Shown one piece after another: positions 1,137 through 49,501 of a stretch of DNA of 64,000 nucleotides. The stretch's first letter is position 1, and each line of letters begins with the position of its first letter. The DNA is from Mizuhopecten yessoensis (taxonomy: Eukaryota): the NCBI RefSeq assembly GCF_002113885.1, contig NW_018404881.1, positions 19,558 to 83,557 of the forward strand, read 5' to 3'. The notes below the pieces were generated by a model, which was given only the letters and a program-made list of their open reading frames with translations, was not told the DNA's origin and did no database searches. The position numbers and the translations under genes are program-made.

Positions 1137-2234
1137 CTATCTGGTATCGAAATCCTCAGGCTTAAAGGCTCTGTTTTCGCTTGCTACCGCAATCGCAACT
1201 TCAGAGATCGTCCTTAATTGTAAGGATTCTAACCCTTCTGTTAGATTTTTCACTTTTCTTTCAAAACTGAACCTTTGAATATTCTTCAACCAGCTCAACA
1301 GAATAGACATTTTCAATGATGCATGATCTCCTTCGTATATGACATGCAGTTCATCGATTTTGTTGCCTTCAAGATTCAATAAAAAACCAAGCTTTGTCAT
1401 TTGGGTAACACTAAGCTGATCACTCAGTACGAAGAGGCTTCTCCGATCGTCAAACATAGCTGTACAAAACAAAACAGTATTCTGTACATAGCTTATTTAG
1501 TGAGATGCATCCATGGGCACAAGCCAACAGAAGTCAGCACAACAATTGCCAAATAAAATGCGCTGGACGTTCGAGATTACATATTTTTTTTAGACGTTAT
1601 TAAGCCTAAAATCTGGGTCAACTAGATAAATATCTAAATGAAAGAGGAACAAGGTATTGCGATATCCTACATATTTTCTAATTTGTGTAACCCGTGAGAT
1701 TGGGACAAAATGGATTTCATCAAACAGATATCAGTACAGGTAAGAGTAATGAGTAAGTAACCTACCGTGGTGTGCAGTGTTCGTGAGTCTCGGTTGGTAC
1801 AGTTTCGTCGGTGTAAAAAACTCGTAGGCGCCAAACTGGGCCTCGTGAAGCAAATCGTGTGGTGCTTGGATCCGGCGGTATTTCACAATGGCTTGTTCAT
1901 TCTGATGCCTCTTGTTCCTAATAATCGACAGACGGTGAAAATTTTCGTAATTTTTCTGGTCGTACCATAATACTGGCGGTTCTTTCGAAGCCGTTGGCGG
2001 GATTGTGATTCCTACATCGACCGGAATTTCGATACGAATTCTCTCAAAATTTTTAACCATCACCGGCCGGGATATACAGGTCGAAAGTCCAGTGAGCCCG
2101 TCTTTTCTTCGTTTTTTTAAGGTGGCTTTAACAGTTTTTTCCTTTGCAGGGACTATTTCGGACCATAATGATACATCGGAGTCGTCTTCATCAATGAAAA
2201 GTATAATCTTGCAACAATATTGGTTCACATCCAT
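1137..2234 (-). CDS. Gene A: truncated paralog of gene B encoding a UPA-like domain plus death domain (263 aa, 2 exons); may instead be a pseudogene
   Basis: Exons 2234-1766 (ATG in GCTATGG context; donor G|gtaggt, phase 1) and 1459-1137 (acceptor ttttgtacag|CT, phase 1; TAG). Total 792 nt, open throughout. Clearly paralogous to gene B exons 7621-7080 and 6528-6206. The last exon has a death-domain pattern (LG..L.L...ID.L......IL..W.......L..GLE.LQL..ISE.A). Confidence 0.6.
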
Positions 2235-2519
2235 AGCATGTGCAATTTCGGATCCTTTTCAGAACCAGCACGTCTTTTCCTTATTCCATACCTATTGTAT
2301 TGAAAATTGTATTACTTATTTTTACTTCTTAAACGTTCGATACATTTTAACCTGTGTTATAATATGAACATAAAAAATCATCACTCGAGACCAATTTTAA
2401 GTCAATTTATTTAACATTCTGATGCTGAGATGTGCTTGAAAATGATAGCAGGACAAAAACGCATATTTAATTCCATTATGACTGATATTACATGTAACAG
2501 AGGTCATTATGTTTTCAAT

Positions 2520-2795
2520 GCCTCCACTAGGAGTCGAACCCGGGGCCTACAACTTACTAGTCTTACGCTCTACCAGGTTGACATACTCCCCCTTCAGGAA
2601 AGAACTCGTCCCTAGTTTTCCAAGGGTCATAGCGATTCCTTTGCAAGTATTGCGGAGTATATTTGTCAAATCTCCCGGGTCCCTACGTGTGCCCCAATGT
2701 AACAGAGACCTCTGGCTTACTAGTCTAACGCTCTAACGAATGAGCTAAAGAGAAATTCTCCCTAGCCGAGTCGGTAGGAAGTGACTAGTGGGCGA
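2520..2795 (-). mobile_element. tRNA-derived SINE remnant(s)
   Basis: The minus strand reads ...ggtagagcgtaagactagtaag...ccgggttcgactcc (A-box/B-box-like head), with a second partial head at ~2715-2750. Absent from the paralogous intron of gene B. Confidence 0.6.
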
Positions 2796-2799
2796 CATA

Positions 2800-3033
2800 C
2801 TTACTTCTATTTGATAAAGTGATTTTGATTCGGAAGCACACTTCGCGGGAATATTCACAATCCCTAAGCCAGAGGAAAGTCTTTCATCTCAAATAAATCA
2901 TTCAATTTGCTTAAATGCTTAAATGTCCAACTAGTATATAGATAAGCAATATTGGATAATGTCTTAATACTGATCTGTAAGTCGTTTGTGTTTACTCTTT
3001 AGATCATTCGAAGCAATTTTTAATACAAAAGAA
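2800..3033 (-). pseudogene. Decayed copy of the second-ZU5 exon of gene B
   Basis: Aligns by eye to 7880-8163. The acceptor AG is lost (tattatag in B vs tattaaaa here), there are internal deletions, and the codons for DTFSG are missing. Confidence 0.7.
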
Positions 3034-6205: not shown

Positions 6206-9200
6206 TTAGCTGGTATTGAAATCCTCCAGCTTAAAGGCTCTGTTTTTGTTTGCTACCTCAATCACAACTTCAGAGATCGTCCTTAATTCTAAGGTCTCTA
6301 ACCCTTCTGTTAGATTTTCTACTTTTTGTTTGAAGCTGCATCTTGAATCATTCTCCAGCCAACTCTGAAGAATAGACACTTTCAGTAATGCAGGATTTCC
6401 ATAGTGTTTGTGTTTTAGTTCATCCATTTTTACGCCTGTCAGATTCAATATACTGCCGAGCGCTGTCATTTGGCCAACAGTCAGCTGCTTACTCAAGATG
6501 AAGAGACTCTTTGACTCGTCAAACATTGCTGTACAAAACAAAACAGTATACGTTCTATGATAGCGTATTTGATGAATGAATCACTGGAGACAAGTCAAAA
6601 GAAATCAGCACCACAGGAATTACGCTGGACATATGCGATTACATTAATGAACAATCAAAATATGATAAAGCCAGAGATGAAAGTCAAATGAATATATACA
6701 AGTGAGAGAAAATAAGATATGGATCAGCACAGGGTTTTATTAAGAGAAAATTTAAATGCTGTAAAAAGATAAATAGTATTTTTAAAGCTTTTCATTCAAT
6801 CATAAATGAAGATCATCTGTACGTTTCATGTCAGTTACAAAGAGTCGTGTAGTTAACACGCACANCCCCAAAAAAAAATAAATATAAAAAAAAAATATAT
6901 ATATCCTCATGAAGTGATACCCTACAAAATATCTTTGTTCTTGTGATAGGGACAACATGGAATTTATCAGAAACTAGTAGAGTTAAGAACAATCTTAGAA
7001 AATGCGAAAGTTTTGAGATATTTACTATTATTTCAAAACAGTTTGTATGACTATACCTACAATATGATTTTTAACATACCACAATGTTCAGTTCTGAGCG
7101 AAGGTCTTCTCGGTTTGTTCAGATTCGTCCCTGTAAAATACTTGTGGGCGCCAAAATGGGCCTGGTGAAGTAAGTCATTTTGTTCTTGAACTCGGCGGTA
7201 TTGCACAATGGCTTGTTCATTCTGATGACTGTTGTTCCTGCTTATCGACAGGCGGTGAAAATTTTCGTAACTTTCATGGTCGTAACTCAGTACTCGTGGG
7301 TCTCTCAAAGCCGATGGTGAGATTATGATTCCTACATTTTCCGGAATCTCGATACGAATGTTCTCCAGGTTTTTCACCATCACAGTCGGGGATCTACATA
7401 CCCTAAGTACAATGAGTTTCTCTTCTTCTTCTCGTTTTTGAAAAGTTTTTTCAACAATATCTTCTTCTGCAGGAACTATTTCGGACCATAATGATACATC
7501 AGAGTCGTCTTTTTCAATGAAAAGTAAAATCTTGCAACGATGGTAGTTCATATCCATAGCGTGTGCTATTTTTGGGCCGACGTCCCTTTGATAATCTGTA
7601 CGTCTTCTCCCAACACCATACCTGTTATATATAAAAAGTTGAATTATTTTAACTTTAAATTTCTAAACAAAAATTGAAAATTTCATTACCTGTTAAGCAT
7701 TGTTTAAAATTTGTACCAAATTTTAAACTTTCATAATTCCAGACCAAGTTTTATGGCATTTTATTTAACATTCTAATCTTTAGAAGTGCTTTAAACGGGT
7801 TACAGCACAAACATGAAGAAATGGCATACTCAATCCCAACATAACTGATATCACATGTTAACATACCCGCTAAATGTGTCCACTTCTATTTGATAAAGTG
7901 CTTTCGACTCTGAAACGCACTGCACGGGAATGTCCACAATCTCTAACCCTTTCTCGTCACAGTGGAATACAAAAGTTTCCAGGGGAGAGTCATCCATCTC
8001 AAATAATTCATCCAATTTAAACGTGAGAGCCGCTTTGTGCCTCAATTTGTTCTCATTGGTATGAATATAGGCAATATTGGATAATGCCGCTATATCCGAT
8101 TTATCTGTAAGTCGTTTTTTCTTACTCTTTGGATCAATCGAAACAGTCTATAATACAAAAGAGAAATAATCAACTTGATGTTAAACTATAAAAAGCAGTG
8201 GATATATTGTTAAATTTCGTAATAATATCGAGTGACAAAGTTTGCACGTAAATTATCTTTAGTTCTTTGACCACAAATATTTTATAAATTCACAATTCCC
8301 AGCGAAGAAGATAAGTCTTTCGTTTCAACACCAACATTGCAAATATTCAAAGCGATGATGTACCTATCCTTAAACAAATAGTTGATGTTCAATAACATCA
8401 GCATCATTCCTCCACAATAATGATATAATATGGGGATTGTTTATGGTAATTACAATAAATGCTGTTTGTAAGGTAACATGAATTCTTTTAACCTGTCAGA
8501 ATGTTCGTATCCAAGCATTTGCAGCTCTCATGTTGATGTGTTCGATCGATTTGCTGCATATGGTCGCAATATGGTAAAACCTAGACACATGGTTAAAATG
8601 AAATAACTTACATTTAATTGCTTTTTGAATGTGACAATTATATTCCATTAAATAGTTAAGATGTATACTTACACTGACTTTGACTTGTGTTGTTGTTGAA
8701 ACTGATCCCTGAGGGAAAGTGATAATTTCATCTGCAGAGAGAATATTTTTGTAAACAGTCTCCTTCTCTGGATCCAAAGACACATTATCATATATACGAC
8801 TTGACGTCAGACATATGGAAGCAATGCTAAGGTCTGTGAGGTTTATTTCCAAGGTTTTAGATCCAACCTGCAACAGAACAATAAATGATAACAATAATGC
8901 GTAGGATGAATTTTCGCGTTTGTAAAGATTGATAGCATTTTACAAGTATCTTGTCAACACAAAAAAAAAATGTTTTGCCCATTTTGCTGTATTGTAAGGG
9001 TTTTAATTTATTTAATTAATTTATGTTATGTTATTTATTTATTTATATATTGCTTTATCTATTTTCGTTTTTTACGTGATTACCCCTATCAAATTTAGCA
9101 ACAGATACAGCACGCTGAAAATGAATGACACTATATCTACTGTCGTATCGTCGGTCTAGGAATCATAAGTAATGCTAGGACAAAAAATGCTGAAATCTAA

Positions 9201-10957
9201 ATTGGTTTGGATTACATTTGAAAGCAAAGGGGGGGGGTCGTAAAATACAGTTATCTGATTGCGATTATCAATTGATTGATTTTCATGACTAATTATTGCT
9301 GTCCAATAATGCATATGTTTATTTAGCTGTATTACGTATTTATTTATTATAATTGATTTTTGTCTTGTTATCGTACACATTATAAACACACAAACATGCA
9401 GCCAAATTGAATAACAAATTGCATCAACAAAATAAGAGAAAAAGTGATTCAACCTTCTTTTCCAACGAAATCTTCGTCCAGTTTCCGTCCTTTTTGATGT
9501 GTAATGTATACACCACCCGGTTTCTGATCACACGAAGTCGGAATTGCAGCTTTATGGATCCCTGGTCATGCTTTAAAACTGATTTTTCATATGGTTTTTC
9601 TGTCTTCTTTATGGGGACAAACATTTTTGGGAAGTCGTAGTTGTCTTCCTCTTCTTGATCATTTAATACATCAGCCGGTAGATCTGTGATGCTGATATCG
9701 TACGTGGTGGACTCGAATGTATCTTGGTCACTCTCAATCAACTTTGTCGGAGGTTCGGCCTGCCGCCGTGCATTGTCCCAGGGTTTAATCTCCACTCGCG
9801 CTTTTCTTTAAAAATCAATAACATCACATTATGTAGATTTACATTAACCGATTTTTTTTAATTCGAATTTATATATATATAAATATAAATATTGTAAAAG
9901 AATGTATATGTACATGTAACTGTTTTGTTTCACTGTGTCTTGAAAAAGGAGCGGATCGCTCCGAAAATTTGACAACCTAAACTTGTCCACACTGTTGGAA
10001 TCACTGCTTTGCCCCATATATATATAATATAAGAAGAAAATATTTCAACAACGAGTCTTTAGTATTTTCATCTCTTATAGGAGATTTTTTCACACTGTTT
10101 ATGTTGTATAGGTCGACTTATGCGGGAATACCCTGCAGAAACGTGAATTTTCTTATGTGACCTTTACTGCGGGACACGAAAGCAACAAAAACAAATATGG
10201 TTATTCGTTCGTACGGATAATTTATCTGCTTTTATATTATATATATGTATATATAGTTGTGCATGTTTCATTTGCCCTGTTTAGAAATTTTAGCAAAAAC
10301 TACTGTGTTTGTTATTTCAAAATACATTAGAATTTACAACAGATAAAAATGTTATTGTGAAAATCTTAAAAACTTACTTTATTTCTTTCGGATATTCACT
10401 GAAGTCTCTGAAAGTCAATGCGTAAGAGGAATGAGAAGATAGAGAATTATCACCGCACACTTTGTTATATTCGAGACGACCAATGTTTGGCCCCGTAATA
10501 GATGTTTATCATTTTGTTTTCTGATTGGGAGCACGGAATAAGATGTTTGTGGCAGCCTTATTGCACATTTTATATCTGTCTATCATTATTTCATTCTTTT
10601 AAAATTGCCTTTGTCGTGTTGGCAGTCATATTGCCTATAAATTTCAAATGAAAGCAGGAATTGCTTAAATAATTTACAAATTAAATTGACACGGTATCGT
10701 CGATACGAAATGACAATAACAGGAATTATACAGAAGACTTGATGAAGGCTCCAATAGACGTGTGGCGAAATCAAAATGGAACGAAAGAAGGAGTTATATT
10801 CAACAACAACGTCTAATCGCAAATATAACTGTATTAGCGCTTTAACATCGTTATCAATCGCTGTTTTGATTAGTCGGATAAACAAATTACATTAAGTTTT
10901 ATTGAAATAAAAAAATACAACTTTGTTAAATTGTACTACTTACTTGTCCTTTTCCAT
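6206..10957 (-). CDS. Gene B: ZU5-ZU5-UPA-death domain protein (DTHD1/PIDD1-like), ~578 aa, 7 coding exons
   Basis: Exons 10957-10944, 10407-10378, 9805-9454, 8867-8673, 8147-7867, 7621-7080 and 6528-6206, all GT-AG. Phases 2,2,0,0,2,1 join to 1737 nt without stops. ZU5-like motifs (ITFPQGSV...VKV; LSNIAYI...AALTF; YQIEVDTFSG) and a C-terminal death domain. The first two small exons and the weak donor at 9453 (gttgaa) are less certain. Confidence 0.75.
9885..10020 (+). mobile_element. Short Penelope-like (pLTR-type) fragment between (TA)n tracts
   Basis: Contains gtCTTGAAAAAG-gagcg-gat-cgctc-CGAAAatttgac, a minimal hammerhead-variant motif of the kind associated with Penelope-like elements. 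Flanked by TA microsatellites. Confidence 0.45.
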
Positions 10958-11119
10958 TGTTCTTGAGTTAGTTTCTCCTGGTCTTCTCCTTCATAGATAA
11001 ACTGAGGGAAGAGCAGGGACGCAAATGACAAAATAGTTCAGTTAATCTCCATTTTCAATACTTGATGTATTAACACTAAGCTTAATGATAATTAAACTTG
11101 TTTATGTGATATCTTTGAA

Positions 11120-11480
11120 CCCTGCAGATCGGAGTTGAGCGAATGCAACCTGCACTCGCCCACAGTATGTCGTATCGGACGACTAATGTGGGATTACCCT
11201 GTGGAATCGGGGGCTTTCTTCTGTGACCCTTACTAAAGGACACCAAAGCAACAGAAACAAATACGGTGCATCTATTGACCTTTCAGCTGTACATTGGTGA
11301 CACGAATGGGTTGATATTTCGTTGTCGACATCGCGTGACCGGGCAGGGGGTGGCATGCTATCGAGTCGAGGTTAGGACACTTCAGCATGATAAATGACAT
11401 TCGACTGGATCCAACGTCCATGAACTCTACCTCAATAAGAGTTTAGCTGTTGCAAAGACGTAAACCCTCTAACAACAAAG
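11120..11480 (+). mobile_element. SINE-like interspersed repeat (partial second copy at ~10120-10200)
   Basis: 3' tail gctgttgcaaagacgtaaac...aacaacaa resembles the reverse complement of 55880-55915 and 50705-50735. An ~80-bp diverged copy lies at 10120-10200. Confidence 0.45.
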
Positions 11481-13224
11481 CCTTTTATTTCAAGAATCGA
11501 AAAGAACCAGACTGTAAATGTATAGCTCAGTCTACAATGTTCTGTACAATTTAACTTTATTCTAATAATGATTGTTTCTAATGCTAAGGGAGACATAAGT
11601 ATCGGTGGACTGATCTAAAATGGTATGAATGGAAGAACATTAGTAGCATGTAAGTACATACATGTATATATATATACAATGCTTTCTCCTCTTTAGAGGT
11701 TCATCAGGGGAACTGTGTATATATATATATATATATGAATATGTATCTACGTTACCCAAACACACACTGGAACGTATTCGAGTGCGGTTTTATACTATTC
11801 GCCGTAGCAGGCCATTTTCCAATAGTTCCGCCATTTTATTTAGAAGTGATGTGTTGACTGTATTACATCCGAGGATACTTCTTGTAGCTACATGTATTTA
11901 CCTGTTCTGGGGTAAAAAGTAATAAGCGGAAACTCCCGAAGACTCCCGAATATTTGTTGTTGCTGGCACTACGGTGTGTATTGTATTACGTCGTAATGTA
12001 CGTCCGCTTTATATATTGTTACGAGGTATTACGTCACAATGTATTTTTCGTGATACGTAATCGATATTTCGAGGTAATAATTCACACTTGCGGCTTCATC
12101 ACTGAAAATCTTATCTTAATGACTCGATACTTACATATTTGTTTTCTCTTTGAACACTTGCCAAAAAATATCACACGCAGGTATTACATACATTTACTAT
12201 CACAGACGGATATAGAACATGTATACCACACACTGGTATTTAATTTCACAAACAGGTATTACACATGTATTAACATAAATACAGTATTAAACACACATAA
12301 TAAAACCTGAAGGTGCTGTGATTGGTTAAAACCTTGGGAACATATTTCCACGCCACTACAGGTACTACTTTTATTTATTATATAACATGATACATTTTAT
12401 GTTCTTTTAAATGAATATTTGAAATGTTTATTTTGTCAGTATTATTTTCATTTCACTTAAAACTGTTCATTATTGAAAAAACAATCTTGAACTACTTTGC
12501 ACTGCGCAGAACAAATACTATGATTGGAGTACTTTGGTTCTGACCTTTTTAGAGTCAGCTAATAACACACAATTGTGTTGAAGCGTTTTGTTCAAATTAT
12601 GAATGTTAAGTGATGAATAGAATCGTACATTCGTGTCCATGTCCACTCGCCAAAAGACACGTGTTACATAAAATAATTGAACTCGTTTGATTAATCCGTT
12701 ATGACATGGACACGAATATTAGATCCTCAATGTAATTATTTAAAAATATTTATTTCAAATTCAACATTTTCTCAATCTAGTGGGATTTATCCAACATAGT
12801 ACAGTACCAGCTGTTAACTATTTCTCGACTGAGTCTAATCATATACATGTGTAGACAATGATTTAGTGTAATGATTACATTAGGGGTATTGATAGAGGAC
12901 ATGCTTACAGCGGAGGAGCTACATTGTTTTATTATTGTTCATTAAAGCATGACTGCCAACTAGGGACGCTTATTGTTTTAAAGTGTGTACACATTGAATT
13001 TAACTTAAGTATGGTTCCAAAACTATTAACACACTATTGAACATTGATTTATTATCCCGTTAAATTGCATTTCAAGACTATATATAGATTTATCGACCGA
13101 TAAAAGATTTTAAAAATCTCCTTCCTGATATAAAGGACATAGAGTTAAACTGCGCGTATTTGAAATACATGTATATTCAAATATTCCAAATATACTGATT
13201 TCTATTAAAGACTCACAATAAAAC

Positions 13225-13800
13225 TCAATCAATCCACTTCAAAATCCATTTTCTACGTCTTAAGTAACATCAATTATTATATCTGAAATCCGTTATATAC
13301 ACCTTCTTCAAAACATATGTCAGGTACATTTCAACAATCATTTTCTTCTCCTAAAACATTAGTCGATACACTTCAAATCCATTATCCATGTCTTCAAAAA
13401 CATTAATCAAAACACTTCACTTCCATTATCTACGCCTTCAAAAACATAAGTCAGTTCACTTCAAGATTAATTATCAATGCCTTAAATTCATATGTCAGTA
13501 CATTTCAACATTCATTTTCTTCGCCTTAAAAACCACAAGTCAGTACATTTTAAATTCGTTATCTACCCCTTCCTAAACATAAACCAGTACGTTTCAAAAT
13601 GCATTATCTACTTCTTCAAAAACATTAGTCAATACAATTTAAATCCATTACTCATGTCTTCAACAACATAATTCAGTACACTTCAAAATCTATAATCTAC
13701 GTCTTCAAAAACATGAGAGTTAAAACGCTTAAAATTCATTGACAACGTCTTCAAAAACAAACACAGTTCATTTCAAAGTTCATTATTTACATCTTTAACT
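13225..13800. repeat. Degenerate ~43-bp tandem repeat
   Basis: Recurrent aatccattatctacgtcttcaaaaacat.agtcagtacacttca-like units. Confidence 0.65.
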
Positions 13801-16800
13801 GCATAAGTAAATCAAAACAAAACAAAACGCAAGAGCGTATTGAAATAAGGTGTTAATTAATCCTACCTTTGAACAGCTGATACTAATTAAATCCTGTATT
13901 TACATTTGTTAGATACCCTCATGCCGTGCTTGTCACCTGTAATATAGCATGTATTGTGCATTACATACGCATTATGTAGTTTATCTTACAGATCTGTAGA
14001 ACAAAAGCTTAACCGTGTGTGTTATATATAAACTATGACGAAATTTAAAAGATATAGGGAATTTAATTTAGGGAAAACCTGCGTAAAAAGAGTGTGGTAA
14101 AGGTAATATACTATAATGATATAAGTACAAAATGAAAATAAATGTTACTCAAAAACTATTAAAATCATTTTAACACCTGATCGAAGTCATTGAACATAAA
14201 ATTAGTGAGTATATTTTGTGAAATAAAAAGCGAAGACAGATGTTATAGAAATACTTAATTGCCAGTAAACAACATATGTGTTGAGTTCGGAGGCAAGGGC
14301 TATTTGTTTTGGAGACTTTAAATATAATTATATGGACAAACTGTGTCCATCTTTTGAGTCTTGATGGTCTGTTTTCCCCCTTCATAGCCAGCAAACTCCT
14401 TGCCAAATCCTTTAATTTCATTTCATTGCCAGATGTATATATGTGTTGTCTGTAAATAACATTACAATTATGGACCATGTCGATCGTATATAACCTTCAG
14501 AATATTAAATGAGAGAGAGAGATAGTGTAAACCTCTTTACATAAGTCACTTATTTCCATCGTTACATACAGCGGAGCATTCATGGACAACTTACCTCTAC
14601 GCTGGAAGAGAAGGTTTACGTTTTCGATTTTCTGGTCATAAACTTTGCCTTTTCTTATGATAACGTCCCTGCTTTTCCATCTTCGGTTTCAGCACGTCGC
14701 AGTGGAATCCATATTCAATGTTTTGAAAATAACGATTTCAGTGAAAAATGCCGAATGTTAAAGAAAAAACCTACAGCAAAGGTGTTCGACACATCAGACT
14801 TTCGTGAAATGCAAGATCATAAAGGCAGTGTTCAAGTTTTATTATCGCCACCATGAACTCGTAAGGAAATTATATTATTACCCAGCTTCATCAATTTTCT
14901 GTTCAAATTACGATTTTATTCACACTTAAGTAATCTCCTTAAACATTATTGGAATATTCTGTTATAGAACCTTGAAAGCTGTATAGTTTGCCGGAAGGAT
15001 TTATATCTCCGAATATACAATTATATGTAAAGATTTGAGTGCGCGCGTGTGTTCGTGCGTGCGTGCGTGTTACCGTGTACGTTAATTTTCGTAGGTACCC
15101 TGTGTATAGATACATTGTCCGCATTCAGGATTTACTGTGTTAGTATTTTTTCCGTGAAATTCCTGCCTAACGTTTTATGTTAAGCTAACCTTTAGTTGAT
15201 CCGGAACCGGGACGACAATAGTATTATTTTATCTATGTGTCGTGTTTAAACAATTCACCTGTCATAACAAGTCACTGATGACTCACCAGGACACCTTATA
15301 CCTAATTATATACTCATATATATGTATGTGTGTGTGTGCCTACCAAGTGTACTCAATGGCGTTGGATTTCAAATAAATACAATCTACGTACATGCCACAT
15401 GTGCCACCCTGTAATTTGTATATATTACCCCTATAATATACAACAGTACACAATGCTCACACCTCATCTGTAAGTTCGTTTGATGTTAATCTATCAATAG
15501 GAAATATATCTTCATCATTTCAATGACATCTTATTTCTTCACTTTTGTATCGTTTTAAATATATATTGGATATTTTTTGGTAAAATAAACTTGTTTTCTG
15601 GACAGATGGATCTTGCCTGTCAGGATAAATATAATAAGACTGAATTCCAGAGGAGATCATGTTCTTGTTTAAATATCATGAAAAAATACATGTTATGTTT
15701 CTGTGGTTCAAATGTAAATACAGATAGAAAAATGACGTCAATTGGGTGTCTTACATCAGAGTCAATGTATATTTTCTCTTAAATCCTCGTACTAAATGCA
15801 TCGGCATTTTTTTTTCAATGATTTAAGTTTGAAACAATATCAGTTAAACATGTAATTGATAGCAAGCCTTCTTTTTTCATGAGATACTTTCAAGGATATT
15901 TTGTATGCTAAAATACCGAGGGCTTCCGAGGAAGTCTTCCAATCCAGTATAGATTATACTTCGGGAGTAACAAAAACCAAGTTCAATTCATTTAAAGACG
16001 TCAAATACATACCTGTATGTAAACACTCAGGTGCTTCCCAACGAAAGGTTTGTAGCATATATCAAATAATTTGTCTATAAAATACTGTATTTACAGGTAT
16101 AGCGAAATATATTATAAACGTAAAATAATATGATACATCTGAAACTGAGCTTTGTATTTACAGGTTATACGAGTATGCCAAATAATTATTTAAGTATAAT
16201 AATTGTACTGATTTGTTTTTACATAACTGAGATTATCATATATTTTTATATAATACCTGACACTATAGATATATTGTATAACACAGATAATGATACTTAT
16301 ATTTATAGTGCACTAAAGTGATGATACATGATATATATTATAATATTCATGGATGTTGTTAATTACACTATTATAGTGCAACATAACATGAATATATGAA
16401 AAACACTGTAGTATTGTTGCTTAACAGGGATAGATTAATGTATTTACATAGTGAGTGACAATATGAAAGTGCTACATAACGGAAATTATGTTGTTAATTC
16501 ATATGCAAGTAGTAAGAGACAGTTTAGTAAGGTTACATAACAGAGATTATTATATTTACTTATGTAGTAAGTGTCACAAACGTTATGTACATACAGGAAT
16601 TATTTTATGAATTTATATAATTAGTGGCACTATACAGAGATACACAGTTCACGTAACCTTAAGAGGGTCTGTGTATTGTTTCTACGTTATGTACAAAACA
16701 ACAGTGTAAAAATTAATATGGAGATACAAAGGTTATGAAACTTAGTTATAATTGGACAACGATCTTACTTTTGTTACATTTACATAATAACATTTGTTCG

Positions 16801-19186
16801 ATAGGGCTAATCTAACCAAACCAAACAATAACCAAACTACTATAAAAAGACTCAGTTAAATGGCATCAGTTCAATACAAAAAATAAATAATTCCTCGAGC
16901 TATGTCGTCAAGTGCTTTTTCACGAATAAAATGTCTTATTTGAAAGCGATCATAAAAGGAAATCAGAACATATCTTATAAAACGCAGATTGATCAGTTAA
17001 GGAATAAATAAGACAATATATATCCAATCAATGAAATCAATCAACAACCAATTTCCTAAGCTTACGTACGTATATCTTTAAGGAAGTTTGTGTAACGCTA
17101 TTGTTATAAGGAGACAAAGCTCTTATCACATAGACCGCAGCGCTCTGTCGTTTGCACGAATGGGCAAACATGGGCCAGTTATTTAAGACAATGAATATAG
17201 GTCTGCATAGGTCTTTGTTGCAACAAAACGCACGATTTGATAAGATTGTAAGTAAAACAAAGATATGCGTTAACGTCAGGTCATGTGTAATGTTAATTAA
17301 AACAAACCTGCTACTGATATTTGCTAAATACAATGACCAGTTGTATCGGCAGTCTCTCCTCCACTTTTGGAAAACATGTCATCGTTAACTGGCGAAATAA
17401 CTCTGAAAAATAATACTTACATATACTTTGAACGTAAGCGCTTTTTCGCTTCAAGTATTTCGCTAAATTGTGGTTGAGCTTATTGAGGTTTTTAGATATA
17501 ATTTCCTATGGCATATTGCGACTGCGGATATCGATCAATGCGCTAGCATATAAAAAAAACGATAATATGTTTAAATTCAATTCCGCTCAAATAAGTCCTT
17601 TTACACTTAGGTAACAATGTTTATTGTACACTGTATAATCTATCTTTCAGTGAATGGGGAAAGCATTTGAGATGTGGCGACAGAAATGGGAAGCAAGCCA
17701 AGCAGGTAACATCTAACTTAACATTGTTATGCAAATTCCTGTATTTCAAAATTGGTCTCGACGATTTCGACATAACGAAGTTGAAATGTAGTTGAACTAA
17801 AATGTTATAAATGTAAATTGGTATTACAATTTGTAAATTATTATCACTGTGACTCTTGCACCTGTATATCAATTAGTTTAGTCACCTTGTGCATTTGATT
17901 GAATACCTTTAAATCGGGGGAAAAGTAAAAATGAAATCGATAGATTATAGAGATAATGTTGGCATTCGTTTTCTTGTTATTTGGGAGACTTCAACACACA
18001 ATTATACAGTTATAAACTTGATAAACATATGTATCCACACATCTTTAGTACAAAAGCGGTTATCTCCCTTGGCTCTACAGACTCGTGTGCATCGTGGGAT
18101 TTGCTATCTTGCACAACAATCCAACAACGTCACGTCAACAATATTGCAAATAGTGTCATATCTGATATAGGTGAGATATGTATATATTCTGTAAGAATAC
18201 AAAATAAATAATTCACTAATGTCTATGTAGTAAAAGGTTAAAAACCGTTAGGGAGTATATGGCATCAAAGTATGACCCCGTATTGTAGTTTATGTACATG
18301 TACCCCCTACGTCCCTTTAGTACATTTAGGATTACTTTCATTAACCAGGAAGCCATACATGTAGTTAACATTATAGATATTTCACTTCTAAACTGAAATA
18401 TATTTTAACAATGAATATTGCATAAATGAATGCGAGTTTAGAACTGATTTTCTCCTAATGGCTGCTACGATTCTTTTATGAATGTAAACACACAGATAAA
18501 CAGAATTGGTCTGTTATGGCTGCCGTTGGTTAAATGGTACGTCTTTTCATCCAACAAGAAAGTTGTTGTATCTACATTGTGTTTGTCTGTACTCCATAAT
18601 CACTGGTCGCGCGTGTATTACGTGAGAACATGTTACAATGATAAGAACATCGTTGGTAAGGTATATGTATAAGATGAAGATCAGGGACTTGCAGTCATCT
18701 ATTTTGGCAACATTTTAGAATCCAAGTGAAACATCGACCAGACTTCTCTATATTCCCAAAAAGTTTTTTATTCTATTATATTCCGTCAAAACATTTAACA
18801 AATAATGAACAAGAGCTGACTGAAATCTTGGATTTTGTTTTAATTTGTAACCCTTACCAACAATTTCTCAAAGCGTTCATTGGGTTTTTCCCTGTGAATT
18901 GGCATTTGGAGATACTGATGTTAGCATTGAACTACTGCACTTGAGATCCACGGGAGACCATTAGGTCAACTAGACAAAGGTTGTTTCAATGCAGCGCATT
19001 ATCTCTATCAACCAAGTACTAGATTGTATTTTTGAAAGAGGGACATTTGTAATTAAAGCGACCATAAACTAGCTTGATGATGATCTTACACTGACTGTCA
19101 TAGCGAAATTCTAAAATCTAGTTTTGCACATATTATCTCTCAATTTGAATATGTAAAATAAAAAATATAATTATTTCTGTCCACAG

Positions 19187-22100
19187 TCTGAATGAAAGCT
19201 CCTTTTCAAGTATTGCAGACCACAAAATGGCAGAGTAAGTAAACACAATATCTAACAGTTCGATTATATGATTTTATATAAACACGTCCTCTTCGGAAGT
19301 TCGATAGTGCTGAATAAGAAGCAGACACATTTAACACTGCGTAGAAAATTACTCTGCAATCCCTGTTCAAAACAATGGACAAAAATTCTTCCACAAACTG
19401 TTACGGTGAAAGTATCGTTTATTGAAATAGCGTTGTGATCACCGAGTCCATGGTTTTGTCTCATTCATTTTAACAGATCAACTGAAAAATGATATTGCTA
19501 AGAATTTTTTTAGTATTCTATCCATCTTTGACCTGGCACCCCGAAAAAAAGAACCTAAAAATGGTTAGTTGCTTAACATCATACGAAGTTTCGGATAATC
19601 GAGAGGCCACTTAAACGAACTTGTACTGAAGATGTCTTCACAACATGAACTAAATATAATTGAAACCTTTTGCCGTGAAACTTTATTGAATGTGACAAAA
19701 TCCAATATGTTTTACAAGTTTTACGTACAGTTTATAATGACACTGTCGAAACGAAAAAGACGTGGAAAACGCAAAAATCGTGGACAGGTGGTGACGTCAT
19801 CATTACTTAAACTCCAATTATCTAGCAAATGAAATGTTTAATATGATATCTTATTTCTTTATATCCCAGCTCGATTGCGTACCAAAACATTATTCTGGTG
19901 AAAACAAAACCATGGGACTCCCAAAAAAGGAAAGATCAGTTTCCTACAGAAGAGGTTACAGGTGATAAAATGACTTTCGAAACAACAATAATCGATGTTG
20001 AGATCACACATCCTACACTGACCGAGAAGGAATGTACAGAGAAGGACATATTTCCTATGCCTTACGTCAACCTCGACAACGACAAGGAGCAGGAGTTTTA
20101 CACACTGAAGAACTCCAGTGGTCAAATAGTGGTATCTGTTGAACCTAGAATTCCTAAACGAAACGCAATATTTACCTTCCATGTCAAACGGAAAGGGAAA
20201 CAATCATGGGATCAACATCACGTTAAAAAGAAGGTACTTGTGTAACGTACGACTTTAAACTGTCTGAACGGTTTTTGTTGTTGTTGTTTGCATTAGATCT
20301 AGTTCCCATTTGAAATTCAATAGTTCATATTAGTTGTGCAATATAATCGCTAATGATCGATTGCAATTGGTCAATAAACATCAGTTAAGACTTTGCTCCT
20401 TGTATTATGAAAAAAAAAATTGCATATTATGTGAATGTATATTCAAATGAAAATGAATACATTTGACACGTCTAACTAACGACATTACTAAAGACATAGA
20501 ATAAAACATCACTAGCAGCTGTAATCTTAATTTGAAGTGTAAACTAGTAATTATCGGTATCATTAGAAACTGATATTTTTTCGTCGAAGCTGTTTAGTGC
20601 GCACATATCGGTGTCATAACGCCTCAGTTACATGTTTTAGAAATTAGTCCTCTTTCGAAAACAAAAGTGACATATATGTTTTGCTTTCTCAGTCTATTCT
20701 GGAGGCACAATCCCATACATCTTGGTATCATTGCAGATTTCAGCAAATGTAAGGTGCACATATTCCAGAGCTATTATATCTATGATAACCTTTTGAGGAA
20801 TAAACTCTTCAGGTGTGGCATCATTTGAAATGATCTAAGTAGTTTTCCGAAAAAAGTTAATGCGTACGAATCAGTGCTATAACAACTCGGTCAAATGATT
20901 TCGAAGTTCGAGTTTCAGAACAACAAGATTGGAATGTACATTTTGCATCCTCAGTCCTTTCCAGAGTGAAAACCCAATAAGTCATGTCATCATTGGAATG
21001 ACCATTCCAGCCACTTCCACAAACAAATGTGTAGTGCGCGTTTCTCAGAGCTATATCACCCCGGGTATACATATTAAGTAAACAAATGGGTAATGAAGAA
21101 TCGAGAAAAATGTACGCTATTTTTTGTAAATTAGCACTTTTCAAATTGTAGAAAGGAGAGATGACTGTGTTTATAGAAACAGAACAACTTGATATTGACA
21201 CCGTGTTTATAACATCACAACTTGAGGTCCAGACTGTTGAAGTCACTCGAGCCGGCTGTGCGAAAAAACTTGATCCTAATGACGAGAACATGAAGATTGA
21301 ATTTCAACCCGAGTCTGTGAGAAGTACCATGGAAGTCACAATCGAGGTCTGTAAACACTACTATTCCAAAAAAGGGAATATATATTTTAATTCTTGCAAA
21401 AAATGTGAAAAGTCATGACTACCAAATAGTTTAATGTGAACCAACCGGGTTGACGAAACCGTTGATATGACAAAAGTAAATAATTTAGAACTCTTATCAA
21501 ATCATGTTCGTGTTAAACCGTGACCACCGCTATGTCATAATGCTTGAAGCATAACTTCATCTTAGCCAAATAACTGTGATGTCAGAATTAAGACAATGGA
21601 AAGTATGCCATGGTATGAACGTTGCATTGAAGAAGATAAACATGGAGGTAAGATGGCTTTGTTGAAGACAAATTATACTCAAAGAATATTCATCGTCATG
21701 CTAAAAAGAGATTTTGAGTTGGTTTCTAGTCTCGTGTTATAAACCTCAAAATATAGTGAACGTGCATTATGACGTTAAAAAATACACACCTAGTGACGTC
21801 ACCGGCAACATACAAACTGGAATCGTCGAGAGTATTATGTACTTGCGCAATATAATTACATTGATTGATTGTACCTTCAGAAACATTTTTCTAAAGGCCT
21901 GTGTTAAAGTAAAACAAAGCTTGGACACACGCATGACTGTACATAGATAACAGGCTTAAACTCATTCGTACCTCTACTGCGCAAAGGAGGTAACATTCCT
22001 TTATATATGGCAAGTTTTTATTCTAAATTGTAGTTCAACCATTTTAAACAAATTTTGACAAACTTTTCATCACTAAACAGATAAAAATTGTAGTTGACTT

Positions 22101-25100
22101 TCATTCATTATTTTGCAAATGATAGTGAATTGCATACACTTCTAAAATTTTTGAACCCCTTGTTTCTTTAAGCGATTGTTAAAGTAGCATTGCTGCGTGT
22201 TTAAATCGCAATTAAACAGAAAATAGAACAATTTCGTTTATTATGCGGAGAAACAACATTTAATTCCTTTAACTGTGCCGGGAATTTTCGTCAAAATAGA
22301 TTATAAAAAGCTTCAGAAAAACGTCGATAATAATTATTACTTAGCAAACTTACTTCGTATACCAACATTACTTTGTATGATATAAGTACTGCTCGAAAGA
22401 GTGCAGTACCTTTGTTGTCAAGCGAAGCTACAGGACAGCAGAGTGTACTTCAGGGGATCTTAAAGGTACGAACATTGGTCTTTTAGGTTACCTCTCTTGA
22501 TGATATCGTAAAGGTAACGAAACTGGGAAAACTGTTTGGTAAAAACCACGGTATACTGGGAATCTCTGACATGGTGAACGTGACACACGAAGGAAACTTC
22601 CTGCTACCTGTCAACCTAACATTAGCCATGCAGCCTCTACAACCCCAGCCTGTCGATGAACTGCCCGCTTCACTCGTCTTGTATGTTGAGGACGATACAA
22701 TCCAAGAGCTGGAACAAGCGACGGTAGAACAAATTGCTGACAACCTTTTCACCATTTCGACGAATCACTTTTGTCCGTAAGTATTTTTAATTCGGGTTTT
22801 TTCACATTTATTCCCAGTACTTTAACATGCTACAATGTACAAGCACATCCTCACCTCTTTTCAAAACAAAACTAGCCATTTAGGATCCATCGAAAATACT
22901 TTGTCCAATAGTGTTGTTATACAGAAGAAGTTAAGATGTCATAATAATTGAACTTTGTATTACAAAAACGCGTTTACCTATTTCAGGTAATAGGATTGTG
23001 TCGCCATTTCTCAGTAGAATTTATTCCAATTTTGTAGTTATATTGCTTTGAAGTAACATTTTCTGCCACAAAAAAAATATAGGTTGTCAGAATTTTAAGG
23101 ATTTTAAATGGAAATTTATGTAAAAAGGAGTGAATTTTGAAAAGAAATATGAAACACACAATTTTTTCCAAAATAATGTCAATAAAAATGATACTAACAT
23201 AGATTAGTATTGCATTGATGTATATCAATTTCATAAATACTGAAATTGTGTAAAATTAATTATTTATAAACCGATTAAAAATTGATATTTTGTAATAAAA
23301 CCATATACACATAGTAATTGCATGCAAGAGTTATCGTTCTTGAAAAACTTCACAGTAGTGAAATAGGTAAAATGGACACATGTGACTCATTGATTAAAAA
23401 ACAACTGAATTAATGCCTGGATTGCTTTGCAATACTTTAATATTGAAAGAACACACTGTTCTGTCAATAATAATCATACAATATTCATCACTTTAATATT
23501 AAACATTAGATTATGCGGAAATTGTGATACTGTCTCCCTACATTGGATTTTCAACTAGGGATGTACTTCCTATTTCCGTTTCACAATACACTCCTATGAT
23601 CTTAATCTTTCTTATCAAAAACTTTGACAGAAAATATCAATTTCGTATGTTGTATCAATCAACCGCTTCGTAGTGTATGAACATTTAACTATAATAAATA
23701 TGTATATATATATTTCAGGGTAGTATGTGTAAGACTGAGACCAACTGTCCGTCGGTTTCACGCGGAAAAAGCTCTCAGATATGTTTACGATCTCGACGAT
23801 CCAAGGTGTAACATCTTACTGTTTTCCAAAAAAGATGGAAAATTACTACTCCTTCGCTCAGAAATAGTGTCTGAAGATGAAAGGTTGAAAAAGGAGCAGG
23901 AAAGAACGACTGGAATGGGCATGAATTTGCTGCCGACTTGCACGTCACCAACAATACGATTGAAAAATATGGACAGAGTGAGAATTTCTTTGGCTAATCA
24001 TATGTTCCTAAAGTTCGCGACTGGTATCCCGCTGGCAGGGCGCTTTATCGTGTTTGACCGGCATAATAATGATAGCTCCCTCTCATTTCATGTTGAAGAA
24101 AACAAAGAGTTTGGAGCTGGAAGCATGGCTACACTGGAATATGACTTAGACAGTGGTCGGAATCGAAGGTCACTTCACAAAGCAACGTTCAATGCTTTGA
24201 AAGAAATGACAAATCAAAAAAATCCTACCTTGTCAAGACATTGTTCGCAAGACACCTTAAGTACAAATCCAGGATTGCAAACAACATATTACACACGGCA
24301 AGTATCTGATTCTTCTAGGTATAGAACTTCCACTGAAACGTCTGCCGGAATTGCGTCTGTACGTGATGATGTCACTCCCTCTTCGTCAGCTACTGACGTA
24401 AAAGAGGGAAAAGCGATCAGTCTCAATCTTCCAGACATGAAGCTAGACTTGTTGCCATCCCGATTACCTGAAAACTCTCCACAAACCGGAAACACCAAAT
24501 TACCAAAACATGTGACAAAAAACAAACCCCAGGTTCTTCCCGGTGCGGTTAAAGAAGAAAAAGACGTCTCTAAAACAGGAACAAGACCGGCTTCTACCGG
24601 AGATAAGGATTCATGTTCAGGTAAGTTATTTATTATTAACAAACATGTCGCTGTCTTACAGATTATTTTATCGCAATGTTATGTAGCTCGTATATGATAA
24701 AGAACAAGTCCTCTAAATATTTTCTTAATTCTATTGCAAACGAGACTGTGTATCTTTCCAATAGACATGGACTCTGCTATATGATAAATGGTAAATTTCT
24801 GCTTATTTTCCAGGATCAAAGAAAGTCTGAAAATTCCAAAGATGACAAAACAAGAAATGGAAAGTTTAAATGATCACCAGAATTATTATAGCACATATGG
24901 TAAACCCAGCGACCCGTTCATTTAAATGTATAAGTAAACTTCAATTATACCACACAAATCTGGTCAGCAGCCTACATCAAAGGCGTAAACTTTATAGGCT
25001 ATTTTTAACTGTTTAACGCATAGCAATGACCCTAGTACGGCACTAACACTTCAAAATATCAATTAACAGAGGGCGCCATATTATTGTTTTCTCCGTCATA

Positions 25101-27540
25101 AATAAAAATAAAATATTGACGACAAATATTGCATGGATACGAAACAATTGTCCGGAAAGATGATCTAATGTTCAACTCTGAACATTTCTATATCAATATA
25201 TGACCTTTTGAATCATATTTCTTATTATATACAGAAATATTTAGCAAATTGTCAGACACACAACTCTCAACGTATTATATGTCATCTTTAAATTAAATAA
25301 TAAAAAAATCTGTGACTTATAAATAAACACAATGTGTTTTGTTGAACACCTTATGTTCTCTGTCCTTAAACGCAGCTCGAGATCAACATCATACGTTCAA
25401 TTTTCAAATATAATAAATGAGAATTATGTTGTTGTTTTTTTGTGATATCTCTCTTATGATATGTTGAACAATGTAGTACATATTGTTCCAAACTGAACGC
25501 GATTCTAGCATACGTCTTCTCCCTTGTAAAATAATTTTTATATTTGTTGAGGCTCGTACACAAAAGAAACGATATAGTTAGTTCTACTTTATGTTAAATA
25601 AAACAGATAAACTCCAGTGTTTTCGAGAGAAAAAAATCGGTTTGGAGCTTCAAAGTGTAAATTTGATTAAATTGTTTGGTCTACACAGTAAAACAACTTA
25701 GGTTACCAATGCTGCACTACATGTTGAAGACACTTGCATACATAAAATGTGGAGTTATTCACCAAAAAGACTGAGGATATCAATGATAAAACTTGTCGGT
25801 GTTTTATGTTGCAGGAAAGACTGAGGAACTCAATGATAACATTGTCTGTGTCTTATGTTACAGGAAAGACTGAGGAACCCAATGATAACATTGTCTCTGT
25901 CTTATGTTACAGGAAAGACTGAGGAACTCAATGATAACCTTGTCGGTGTTTTATGTTACAGGAAAGACTGAGGATATCAATGATAACATTGTATGTGTCT
26001 TATGTTACAGGAAAGACTGAGGAACTCAATGCTAACATTGTCTGTGCCTTATGTTACAGGAAAGACTGAGGAACTCAATGATAACATTGTCTGTGTCTTA
26101 TGTTACAGGAAAGACTGAGGAACTCAATGATAACATTGTCTGTGTCTTATGTTACAGGAAAGACTGAGGAACTCAATGATAACATTGTCTGTGTCTTATG
26201 TTACAGGAAAGACTGAGGAACTCAATGATAACATTGTCTGTGTCTTATGTTACAGGAAAGACTGAGGAACTCAATGATAACATTGTCTGTGTCTTATGTT
26301 ACAGGAAAGACTGAGGAACTCAATGATAACATTGTCTGTGTCTTATGTTACAGGAAAGACTGAGGAACTCAATGATAACATTGTCTGTGTCTTATGTTAC
26401 AGGAAAGACTGAGGAACTCAATGATAACATTGTCTGTGTCTTATGTTACAGGAAAGACTGAGGAACTCAATGATAACATTGTCTGTGTCTTATGTTACAG
26501 GAAAGACTGAGGAACTCAATGATAACATTGTCTGTGTCTTATGTTACAGGAAAGACTGAGGAACTCAATGATAACATTGTCTGTGTCTTATGTTACAGGA
26601 AAGACTGAGGAACTCAATGATAACATTGTCTGTGTCTTATGTTACAGGAAAGACTGAGGAACTCAATGATAACATTGTCTGTGTCTTATGTTACAGGAAA
26701 GACTGAGGAACTCAATGATAACATTGTCTGTGTCTTATGTTACAGGAAAGACTGAGGAACTCAATGATAACATTGTCTGTGTCTTATGTTACAGGAAAGA
26801 CTGAGGAACTCAATGATAACATTGTCTGTGTCTTATGTTACAGGAAAGACTGAGGAACTCAATGATAACATTGTCTGTGTCTTATGTTACAGGAAAGACT
26901 GAGGAACTCAATGATAACATTGTCTGTGTCTTATGTTACAGGAAAGACTGAGGAACTCAATGATAACCTTGGCTGTGGCTTATGTTACAGGAATGACTGA
27001 GGAACTCAATGATAACATTGTCTGTGTCTTATGTTACAGGAATGACTGAGGAACTCAATGCTAACATTGTCTGTGTCTTATGTTACAGGAATGACTGAGG
27101 AACTCAATGCTAACATTGTCTGTGCCTTATGTTACAGGAATGACTGAGGAACTCAATGCTAACATTGTCTGTGCCTTATGTTACAGGAAAGACTGAGGAA
27201 CTCAATGATAACCTTGTCTGTGTCTTATGTTACAGAGGTATTCAGTGAGAGAAGCTTGACTCTCCTTGCAAGGCAGATACCAGACCATGAATACACTTCC
27301 ATGGCCACTTTTTTAGGGATATCTATGGTTGTTGCGGACAGGTTAATGCAGTCCCTCCCAAACACTCAGGACAGAAATCAGTTGAAGCTGAGGCTTCTGA
27401 TACACTGGCTACAAAACGAAAGCACCAACCCTTCCAAAAGACTTCAAACATTAACTGTTGCATTACAAGATATCGATCAGAAAGGCTTGGCAGAAAAGGT
27501 TGAGGAAGCTTTCAACAACAACAGGCCTTTTAGACCATAA
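19187..27540 (+). CDS. Gene C: ZU5-ZU5-UPA-linker-death domain protein (DTHD1/PIDD1-like), ~700 aa; 5' end uncertain
   Basis: Exons 19187-19234, 19870-20233, 21152-21346, 22487-22776, 23719-24620 and 27236-27540. Phases 2,0,0,2,1 are identical to gene B, and one exon is 195 nt in both genes. Shared motifs: KPWD, TFE(S/T)T..D, C.ILLF, SEIV, KN...IRI, LH.A.F, F...SL..L, N.R.F.P. ZU5 signature ISDMVNV....FLLPVNLT...HFCP. Confidence 0.8.
22985..23605. mobile_element. Non-autonomous DNA transposon (TTAA-ended, Kolobok-like MITE), longer copy
   Basis: Both ends match 57981-58189 (gtaataggattgtgtc.ccattt... and ...caatacactcc.atga.cttaa). Imperfect terminal inverted repeat. Confidence 0.65.
25765..27235 (+). 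repeat. 49-bp minisatellite, 30 units, forming the 3' end of the last intron of gene C
   Basis: Unit gaaagactgaggaactcaatgataacattgtctgtgtcttatgttacag. The terminal AG recurs every 49 nt from 25814 to 27235; the central units are identical. Confidence 0.97.
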
Positions 27541-49467: not shown

Positions 49468-49501
49468 TTTGATCGGCTGGTTGACGGTGGAGCGTGCGAC
49501 C

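What the first reader, a model, noticed from the sequence alone, without database searches (positions are those of the whole stretch)
22757..22776. HF|CP motif: possible cysteine-nucleophile autoproteolysis giving an Xaa-Pro neo-N-terminus
Seen: gene C reads FTISTN-H-F-C-P-VVCVR at the end of the second ZU5-like exon; gene B reads YQIEVD-T-F-S-G-YGV at the same place (7877-7867). In both, an intron falls one codon after the Ser/Cys. Known: PIDD1, UNC5CL and Nup98 self-cleave at HF|S; NLRP1/CARD8 cleave at F|SP, and their Ser-Pro terminus is bound by DPP8/9. Inference: C could self-cleave through an N-to-S acyl shift and expose Cys-Pro, which fits DPP8/9 specificity. B would expose Ser-Gly or not cleave, so the paralogs may be regulated differently.
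Basis: partly seen in the sequence, partly recalled or inferred. Interest (0 to 1): 0.7.

Follow-up and report, generated by a model that had tools for sequence, protein, structure and literature searches.

The report
Swapped catalytic histidine, scallop death-domain proteins
A scallop death-domain gene has His-Phe-Cys exactly where related human immune and cell-death proteins cut their own chain, so it likely self-cleaves using cysteine, while its neighbour and most close paralogs carry a histidine about 30 residues upstream that would do the same job; the proposed link to the enzyme DPP9 is not supported.

Summary
The motif is real: H-F-C-P at 22766-22776 plus 23719, with the splice bridged by transcript-like contigs. 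Gene C (707 aa, Mizuhopecten KP79_PYT16352) and gene B are LRR-less PIDD1-like ZU5-ZU5-UPA-death-domain proteins of an unannotated mollusc family. Profile and fold comparisons put the Phe on PIDD1's second HF|S and on NLRP1 F1212. Self-cleavage by an N-to-S shift is plausible but untested. The DPP8/9 idea is weak: Pro follows the nucleophile in 2 of 43 relatives (2 of 4 HFC proteins), and CARD8 starts Ser-Leu and does not enter DPP9's active site. New here: gene B and 11 of 13 non-HFC scallop paralogs keep a His about 30 residues upstream, spaced like the catalytic His of NLRP1/CARD8. All four HFC proteins lost it and have His next to the Phe instead. B is therefore a likely FIIND-type self-cleaver, not a dead copy, and the catalytic base appears to have moved. 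This rests on one evolutionary event, and the residue-level match to NLRP1 H1186 is inferred. The scan noted an HFC variant (sea urchin) and a similar mussel family before, on other DNA.

The parts
22766..22776 (+). Gene C H303-F304|C305-P306 codons (Pro completed by base 23719); predicted scissile bond F304|C305
   Evidence: homologous to PIDD1 second HFS
22777..23718 (+). Phase-2 GT..AG intron inside the +2 (Pro) codon; position shared by the family
22682..22684 (+). Gene C Tyr275 at the distal position where non-HFC paralogs have His
22712..22714 (+). Gene C Glu285, 10 residues after the distal position; column is Asp/Glu in 27 of 43 members (possible counterpart of NLRP1 E1195, inferred)
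17651..17705 (+). Gene C first coding exon; ATG at 17686, N-terminus MGSKPS (N-myristoylation-like)
19187..19234 (+). Gene C coding exon 2
19870..20233 (+). Gene C coding exon 3 (first ZU5-like domain, degenerate)
21152..21346 (+). Gene C coding exon 4 (end of ZU5A, no HFS-like site; start of ZU5B)
22487..22776 (+). Gene C coding exon 5 (3' part of ZU5B, ends in the motif)
23719..24620 (+). Gene C coding exon 6 (last ZU5 strand, UPA domain, disordered linker)
27236..27540 (+). Gene C last exon (death domain) and stop
   Evidence: (loose ends at 24620)
7867..7877 (-). Gene B T-F|S-G codons (Gly completed by base 7621)
7962..7964 (-). Gene B distal His, 31 residues before the Ser; candidate FIIND-type catalytic base
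6206..11001 (-). Gene B (about 578 aa, ZU5-ZU5-UPA-death domain; exons 11001-10944, 10407-10378, 9805-9454, 8867-8673, 8147-7867, 7621-7080, 6528-6206)
   Evidence: contig joints; open frame
1140..3020 (-). Gene A, broken copy of B: stops and frameshifts in the ZU5B exon, codons of the D-T-F-S motif missing

Best explanation
Gene C encodes a 707-residue ZU5-ZU5-UPA-death-domain protein whose His-Phe-Cys sits at the junction where PIDD1 and NLRP1 cut themselves, and it likely cleaves itself once between Phe304 and Cys305, with His303 predicted to activate the Cys thiol for an N-to-S acyl shift. The 34.5 kDa N-fragment (MGSKPS start, possibly myristoylated and membrane-held) and the 45.4 kDa UPA-linker-death-domain fragment would stay clipped together, because the strand after the cut completes the ZU5 sandwich. 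Loss or release of the N-fragment would free the death domain to oligomerise, as in PIDD1-CC and NLRP1/CARD8. Gene B and most scallop paralogs likely do the same chemistry with Ser and a His about 30 residues upstream (the NLRP1/CARD8 arrangement). The C lineage lost that distal His and has His next to the Phe and Cys instead, so the paralogs differ in active-site layout, not in cleaving versus not cleaving. The Pro at +2 is most likely incidental.
For: Shown: architecture. The family profile matches PIDD1-type proteins over ZU5-UPA-DD with its 'dsfsg' column on their HFS (E 1e-35 to 1e-42) and ankyrins (E 1e-28). AF2 models of the HFCP relative P0002 (pLDDT 82.5) and the TFSG paralog P0006 (87.6) match ankyrin-B, rat NLRP1, CARD8, UNC5b and the PIDD death domain. 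The alignment of the P0006 model to the human NLRP1 ZU5 fragment ends at model Phe153 and chain residue 1212 (Z 6.0, rmsd 4.0, 109 aligned). Four GAIN-domain chains align up to residue 304, the Phe of HF|CP. Shown: pattern. Of 43 mollusc members, 32 have Phe at -1, and 29 of these have Ser/Cys/Thr at +1 (19/9/1), none Ala. Distal His in 18, proximal His in 6, both in 0 (Fisher p 0.03, rows not independent). Phe plus nucleophile in 21 of 24 with a His against 8 of 19 without (p 0.003, same caveat). In the 17-member scallop clade the distal His is one of 7 of 126 ZU5B columns with at least 11 of 13 identical residues, and the only one of the 7 lost in all four HFC proteins. The proximal His is one of 3 of 290 columns unique to the HFC four. 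P0003, 52% identical to P0002, has distal His with RF|S. The HFC group is nested in the distal-His clade (100/100). Known: rat H942, human H1186 and CARD8 H270 lie 27 residues before the Ser and are required for cleavage; Ser, Cys or Thr serve as nucleophile in cis-autoproteolysis.
Against: No cleavage was measured. The His swap is a single event on the tree; independent-pair tests have 3-4 starred pairs and give no support (median p 1). The swap was noticed first and then counted. The equivalence of the distal His to NLRP1 H1186 is inferred from spacing (28-38 residues against 27), strand order and an acidic column at +10; no residue-level alignment could be obtained (one search found no FIIND chain; models give no coordinates). 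Ser/Cys exchange with almost no Ala also occurs at a UPA column with no known catalytic role (column 337: 16 Ser, 12 Cys, 1 Ala), so it is weak evidence for a nucleophile. 19 of 43 members have no His at either place and 11 lack the Phe, so many members probably do not cleave. 92 of 290 columns are invariant among the four HFC proteins, so keeping H-F-C is not very surprising. A canonical motif need not cleave: ADGRB2 with HLS has a half-life of about 100 days (PMC13062082). The folded proteins were relatives of C and B, not C and B themselves.
Confidence: 0.55

Rival explanations
1. The protein is a non-cleaving ankyrin/UNC5-like scaffold; H-F-C is a relic of an ancestral HFS/xFS site, Phe and a small residue are kept for structure, and the two His changes are coincidence.
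For: Best solved-structure matches are ankyrins, in which cleavage is not known (recalled; a review says it is not observed in canonical UNC5). The motif is degenerate in a large part of the family. Ser/Cys mixing occurs at another column. Motif-bearing GAIN domains can be uncleaved.
Against: PIDD1-type sequences score above ankyrin-1 against the family profile (best-domain 111-132 bits against 103). His is kept at one of two places in 15 of 17 scallop-clade members and never at both. No Ala at +1 among 32 Phe-bearing members.
Confidence: 0.3
2. One reading: gene C self-cleaves and the Cys-Pro end enters the DPP8/9 active site, restraining the UPA-death-domain fragment as DPP9 restrains NLRP1.
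For: Pro is fixed by the two exonic bases CC and is shared with Argopecten P0002. The genome has a DPP8/9 N-terminal domain match (E 3.8e-13). NLRP1-CT has Ser-Pro and threads into DPP9.
Against: Pro at +2 in 2 of 43 members and 2 of 4 HFC proteins. CARD8 lacks X-P and does not use the active site. The NLRP1 and CARD8 complexes need ZU5-DPP9, UPA-DPP9 and UPA-UPA interfaces, and fold-level identity to FIIND chains is 8-15%.
Confidence: 0.07
3. The Cys site forms a long-lived thioester or is redox-gated, so cleavage is conditional or transfers the N-fragment to another nucleophile, as in Hedgehog or inteins, and is not simple hydrolysis.
For: Cys at +1 occurs in 9 of 43 members and needs at least 6 changes on the tree. 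[quoted passage not shown]
Against: No acceptor-binding module is evident in the model; Ser-to-Cys is a one-base change and is common elsewhere in the alignment.
Confidence: 0.08

Closest known systems
PIDD1 (LRR-ZU5-ZU5-UPA-DD; HF|S at S446 and S588)
   Same: ZU5-ZU5-UPA-DD order; the motif aligns to the second HFS; PIDD death domain is the best death-domain fold match (Z 12.9, tied with FADD 12.8); His at -2 as proposed base.
   Different: No LRR; no HFS-like site after the first ZU5; Cys for Ser; MG-type N-terminus; member of an expanded mollusc family in which most paralogs lack the -2 His.
NLRP1 and CARD8 FIIND (ZU5-UPA; SF|S with distal His H1186/H270)
   Same: Fold and position of the Phe. 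Gene B and most scallop paralogs have xF|S with a His 28-38 residues upstream and an acid about 10 residues after it.
   Different: Death domain, not CARD; two ZU5 units; no Pfam FIIND match among 42 members at E up to 1 in the 25 of 28 families shown; 8-15% identity; gene C itself lacks the distal His; only NLRP1 has an X-P end.
Ankyrin ZU5-ZU5-UPA-DD tandem (ANK1/2/3) and UNC5B
   Same: Best solved-structure matches by profile and fold.
   Different: Ankyrins read NVSARF at the aligned place, without Phe-Ser/Cys or either His; no ankyrin repeats or transmembrane region in gene C.
UNC5CL (ZU5-UPA-DD, autoproteolytic) and Nup98/GAIN autoproteolytic domains
   Same: Same ancient autoproteolytic fold (PMC10084454); GAIN chains align up to the Phe of HF|CP.
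   Different: UNC5CL has a transmembrane helix and one ZU5; natural variants seen in the papers read are HFS/HFT and H-X-S/T, not HFC. No UNC5CL sequence was compared here.

Membership tests
ZU5-UPA-death domain superfamily | ZU5 sandwich(es) followed by UPA and a C-terminal death domain | tested here: met
   (models are of relatives P0002 and P0006)
PIDD1 | N-terminal leucine-rich repeats | tested here: not met
   707-aa frame from ATG 17686 has no LRR; upstream in-frame stop; no LRR family among the 25 of 28 shown for 42 members
PIDD1 | HF|S after the first ZU5 | tested here: not met
   gene C reads EQLDIDTVFITS at the aligned place
PIDD1 | His-Phe-nucleophile after the second ZU5 | tested here: met
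   H-F-C aligned to the second HFS; Cys replaces Ser
PIDD1 | Actual autoproteolysis and RAIDD/caspase-2 recruitment | not testable with these tools
   needs expression and biochemistry
FIIND (NLRP1/CARD8) | xF|S with Phe structurally at NLRP1 F1212 | tested here: met
   model Phe153 aligned to 6x6c_E residue 1212 as last pair
FIIND (NLRP1/CARD8) | Distal catalytic His (H1186/H270) next to the nucleophile | tested here: inconclusive
   His at similar spacing in gene B and 18 of 43 members, Tyr in gene C; residue-level register not obtained
FIIND (NLRP1/CARD8) | Pfam FIIND match and C-terminal CARD | tested here: not met
   C-terminal domain is a death domain; no FIIND hit shown
DPP9-restrained sensors (NLRP1 type) | Conserved Xaa-Pro neo-N-terminus | tested here: not met
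   present in gene C but in only 2 of 43 members and 2 of 4 HFC proteins
DPP9-restrained sensors (NLRP1 type) | ZU5-DPP9, UPA-DPP9 and UPA-UPA interfaces | not tested
Ankyrin | N-terminal ankyrin repeats and motif-less ZU5B | tested here: not met

The most novel reading that the evidence does not exclude
One mollusc gene family holds both known ZU5 self-cleavage chemistries side by side: the ancestral scallop state is FIIND-like (distal His, Phe|Ser), and the gene C lineage moved the catalytic base to the PIDD1 position while switching to a Cys nucleophile. The family would be a natural experiment linking PIDD1-type and NLRP1/CARD8-type autoproteolysis, and an invertebrate set of CARD8-like 'degrade the N-terminus, free the death fold' sensors, some tethered to membranes by myristate.
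Probability: 0.35. Interest if true: 0.7.

Novelty: new variant of a known kind. Interest (0 to 1): 0.45.

Why it matters
PIDD1 uses a His next to the scissile bond and NLRP1/CARD8 a His 27 residues away; how one layout turns into the other is not addressed in the papers found. Close scallop paralogs with each layout, including a pair about 50% identical, allow a direct swap experiment and a test of a natural Cys nucleophile in a ZU5 domain. If the family cleaves, molluscs have an expanded, fast-evolving set of self-cleaving death-domain proteins that could serve as inflammasome-like sensors, although a FIIND search of this genome found none (an uninformative blank).

Tried and rejected
Pfam on single exons: only sub-threshold death-domain hits; on 42 members: Death 12, UPA_2 3, ZU5 2. 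phmmer of P0002 against PDB: nothing meaningful. A profile of 8 ZU5B exon ends against PDB, meant to give a residue-level match to NLRP1/CARD8: 1 chance hit. FIIND family search of the own genome: no match, and none in the controls, so uninformative. No RNA holder is listed on record; two raw RNA runs (about 19% read) gave no reads on the exons of B or C, only on repeats, which is not taken as evidence. An ungapped automatic placement of the distal position gave 14 His and slipped by two residues in several rows. I corrected 17 rows by hand and 3 of them again; the independent HMM column gave the same 18 His and differed from my calls in 2 of 43 rows, neither His. Rows dropped before the 43-row count: of 70 library hits, 21 did not cover the motif region or were fragments, and 7 long or divergent hits were set aside (2 of them used as PIDD1-type outgroup); P0073 was added. 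Independent-pair tests were not significant. The intron next to the motif was rejected as meaningful: it is family-wide. No complex prediction was run. Papers not held: PMC1782377, PMC18040, PMC4258472 (Liao et al. 2014, on the ZU5/GAIN/Nup98 superfamily, which may already discuss His placement or HFC variants), PMC2248301. Searches for prior description of this family or of Ser-to-Cys mutants found nothing relevant in the listings; most subscription papers are not searched, and supplements and figure alignments were not seen.

Full report
Observation. The window shows CAC TTT TGT CC at 22766-22776, then a GT..AG intron to 23718 and G GTA GTA TGT GTA AGA, giving H-F-C-P-V-V-C-V-R. Contigs of two runs guessed to be RNA cross the junction without a gap in their own coordinates. 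Joints and loose ends define seven coding exons and a 707-aa open frame; the motif is H303-F304-C305-P306. Gene B on the minus strand reads T-F-S-G at 7877-7867 plus 7621, and its contigs include the death-domain exon that the public model P0004 lacks. The intron position is shared by all 10 loci of this genome whose exon reaches the motif, so it is ancestral and carries no special message.

What the genes are. The gene C exon matches KP79_PYT16352 of Mizuhopecten yessoensis at 100%. A profile search of 1.84 billion representatives gave 70 proteins. Of the 30 looked up, 26 are from bivalves or gastropods (scallops, ark clam, oyster, mussels, abalones, limpet), mostly 'uncharacterized', 3 are deuterostome proteins and 1 has no name. 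The family profile matches ankyrin ZU5-ZU5-UPA-DD tandems (E 1e-28) and PIDD1-type proteins (E 1e-35 to 1e-42), with the family's 'dsfsg' column on their second HFS. AF2 models of the HFCP relative P0002 and the TFSG paralog P0006 are confident over ZU5-UPA and match ankyrin-B, NLRP1, CARD8, UNC5b and PIDD/FADD death domains. The P0006 alignment to the NLRP1 ZU5 fragment ends at Phe153 against residue 1212, the residue before catalytic S1213. Four GAIN chains align up to Phe304 of P0002; that these chains end at their cleavage sites is recalled, not checked. The site is therefore the known autoproteolysis position.

Conservation at the site. Among 43 mollusc members that cover it: Phe at -1 in 32; after those, Ser 19, Cys 9, Thr 1, other 3; His at -2 in only 6; at +2 Gly 18, Ser 8, Arg 6, Pro 2. 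The closest relatives of gene C read HF|CP (P0002), HF|CS (P0005), HF|CR (P0073) and RF|SS (P0003). P0002 groups with P0073 (96/98), and a clade of the two Pro proteins is rejected (AU p 0.017). Control: a UPA column has a similar Ser/Cys mix, so Ser/Cys exchange alone says little.

The DPP8/9 idea. From passages read: the CARD8 C-fragment starts SLMGILLR (PMC3210808); NLRP1 but not CARD8 has the X-P motif, and CARD8-CT does not enter the active site (bioRxiv 2021.01.13.426575); NLRP1-CT threads in but is not cleaved, binding needs three interfaces and full-length NLRP1, and the first strand of the C-fragment is normally inserted in ZU5 (bioRxiv 2020.08.14.246132). The scallop has a DPP8/9-type gene, but with Pro in 2 of 43 members and 8-15% identity to FIIND chains nothing here favours that link.

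NLRP1 and CARD8 lack the -2 His and use a His 27 residues upstream: rat H942, human H1186, CARD8 H270, with E1195/E279 nine residues later. The mollusc family has a column 28-38 residues before the nucleophile, near the end of a strand followed by a hairpin, that is His in 18 of 43 (background 2.5%) and is followed ten columns later by Asp/Glu in 27 of 43. Gene B has this His (7964-7962); gene C has Tyr. No member has both His residues (0 of 43; p 0.03, rows not independent). In the 17-member scallop clade (SH-aLRT 95), 11 of 13 non-HFC members have the distal His. It is one of the 7 best-kept of 126 ZU5B columns and the only one of them lost in all four HFC proteins, while the -2 His is one of 3 of 290 columns unique to those four. 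The HFC group is nested among distal-His proteins and is sister to the gene B group; P0003 (distal His, RF|S) is weakly placed outside the four (57/78). The simplest history is one switch from distal His + Ser to proximal His + Cys. Three vertebrate PIDD1-type outgroup rows have a His at or next to the distal column as well as HFS, which hints at a two-His route, but their register is ambiguous. Limits: one event, noticed before it was counted; independent-pair tests are not significant; the match to H1186 is inferred, since no residue-level alignment was obtained.

Likely mechanism. Shown: architecture, motif position, residue pattern, splicing. Inferred: cis-autoproteolysis at F304|C305 by an N-to-S shift with His303 as base, giving 34.5 and 45.4 kDa fragments that stay associated; release of the UPA-linker-death-domain fragment on loss of the N-fragment, as described for PIDD1 and NLRP1/CARD8. 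Gene C, P0002 and P0073 begin MG[S/N]KPS, which fits the recalled N-myristoylation consensus and would tether the N-fragment to membranes; gene B does not. Against cleavage: ADGRB2 keeps HLS and barely cleaves (PMC13062082); Nup98 H862A only slightly reduced cleavage according to PMC3210808, so the role of the -2 His is itself not uniform; 19 of 43 members have neither His.

Novelty. The module and chemistry are known. A natural HFC and this or a similar mollusc family were noted earlier in this scan on other DNA (e1-7810301, e1-9593762; unchecked AI notes, not support). The paper searches showed no description of this family or of a His swap between the two positions, but key papers such as Liao et al. 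2014 were not held. Papers seen: passages of PMC3210808, PMC8195603, PMC3482391, PMC9700037, PMC10084454, PMC13062082, bioRxiv 2020.08.13.250241, 2021.01.13.426575, 2020.08.14.246132 and 2026.09.13.750810; section 6 and passages of PMC9162469; others as search listings only; no supplements. Verdict: observation confirmed; interpretation partly supported; new variant of a known kind; interest 0.45.

Noticed in passing
window 25766-27235 (+): 30 copies of a 49-bp tandem repeat (97% matches) fill the last intron of gene C; each copy carries the TTATGTTACAG acceptor-like sequence and the last copy supplies the true acceptor of the death-domain exon at 27236. Contigs of X1 and X4 splice from 24620 straight to 27236.
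   Followed up: partly
window 1140-3020 (-): Gene A is a broken copy of gene B: stops and frameshifts in the ZU5B exon, the D-T-F-S codons are missing, and a roughly 290-bp insert with tRNA-like stretches follows (about 2790-2500); ARAGORN finds no tRNA.
   Followed up: partly
window 22485-24295, contig X3 record 8: One contig differs from gene C at 16 of about 870 coding bases, changing 11 of 15 affected codons, leaves H-F-C-P intact, and runs on into unlike sequence after 24295: a divergent allele or an unassembled paralog; the high share of amino-acid changes fits relaxed or diversifying selection.
   Followed up: partly
window 17686-17705 (+): Gene C begins MGSKPS, an N-myristoylation-like start shared with P0002 and P0073 and echoed in P0012 and P0039.
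   Followed up: partly
window 21152-21346 (+) and 6528-6206 (-): Public models are incomplete: P0087 skips 25 residues of the 21152 exon and P0001 starts inside it; P0004 lacks the death-domain exon that contigs join to gene B.
   Followed up: yes
G000 C4118 and C76506 (L004-L008): Five near-identical paralogs of gene B in two tandem clusters; at least four read distal His and TF|SG, a recent expansion.
   Followed up: partly
window 11001-17651: Genes B and C are divergently oriented, with 5' exons ending near 13867 (-) and 16047 (+), about 2 kb apart: possibly a shared promoter region.
   Followed up: no
window 37110-37799 (+): A 230-codon open frame without a Pfam hit; it has an H-x-K-like stretch (TFHGKFAAG) reminiscent of phospholipase D-family domains (recalled, untested).
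   Followed up: no
window 41923-49533 (-): Exons of a flavin-containing monooxygenase-like gene (IAIIGGGCSG, FATGY motifs; family recalled, not searched).
   Followed up: no
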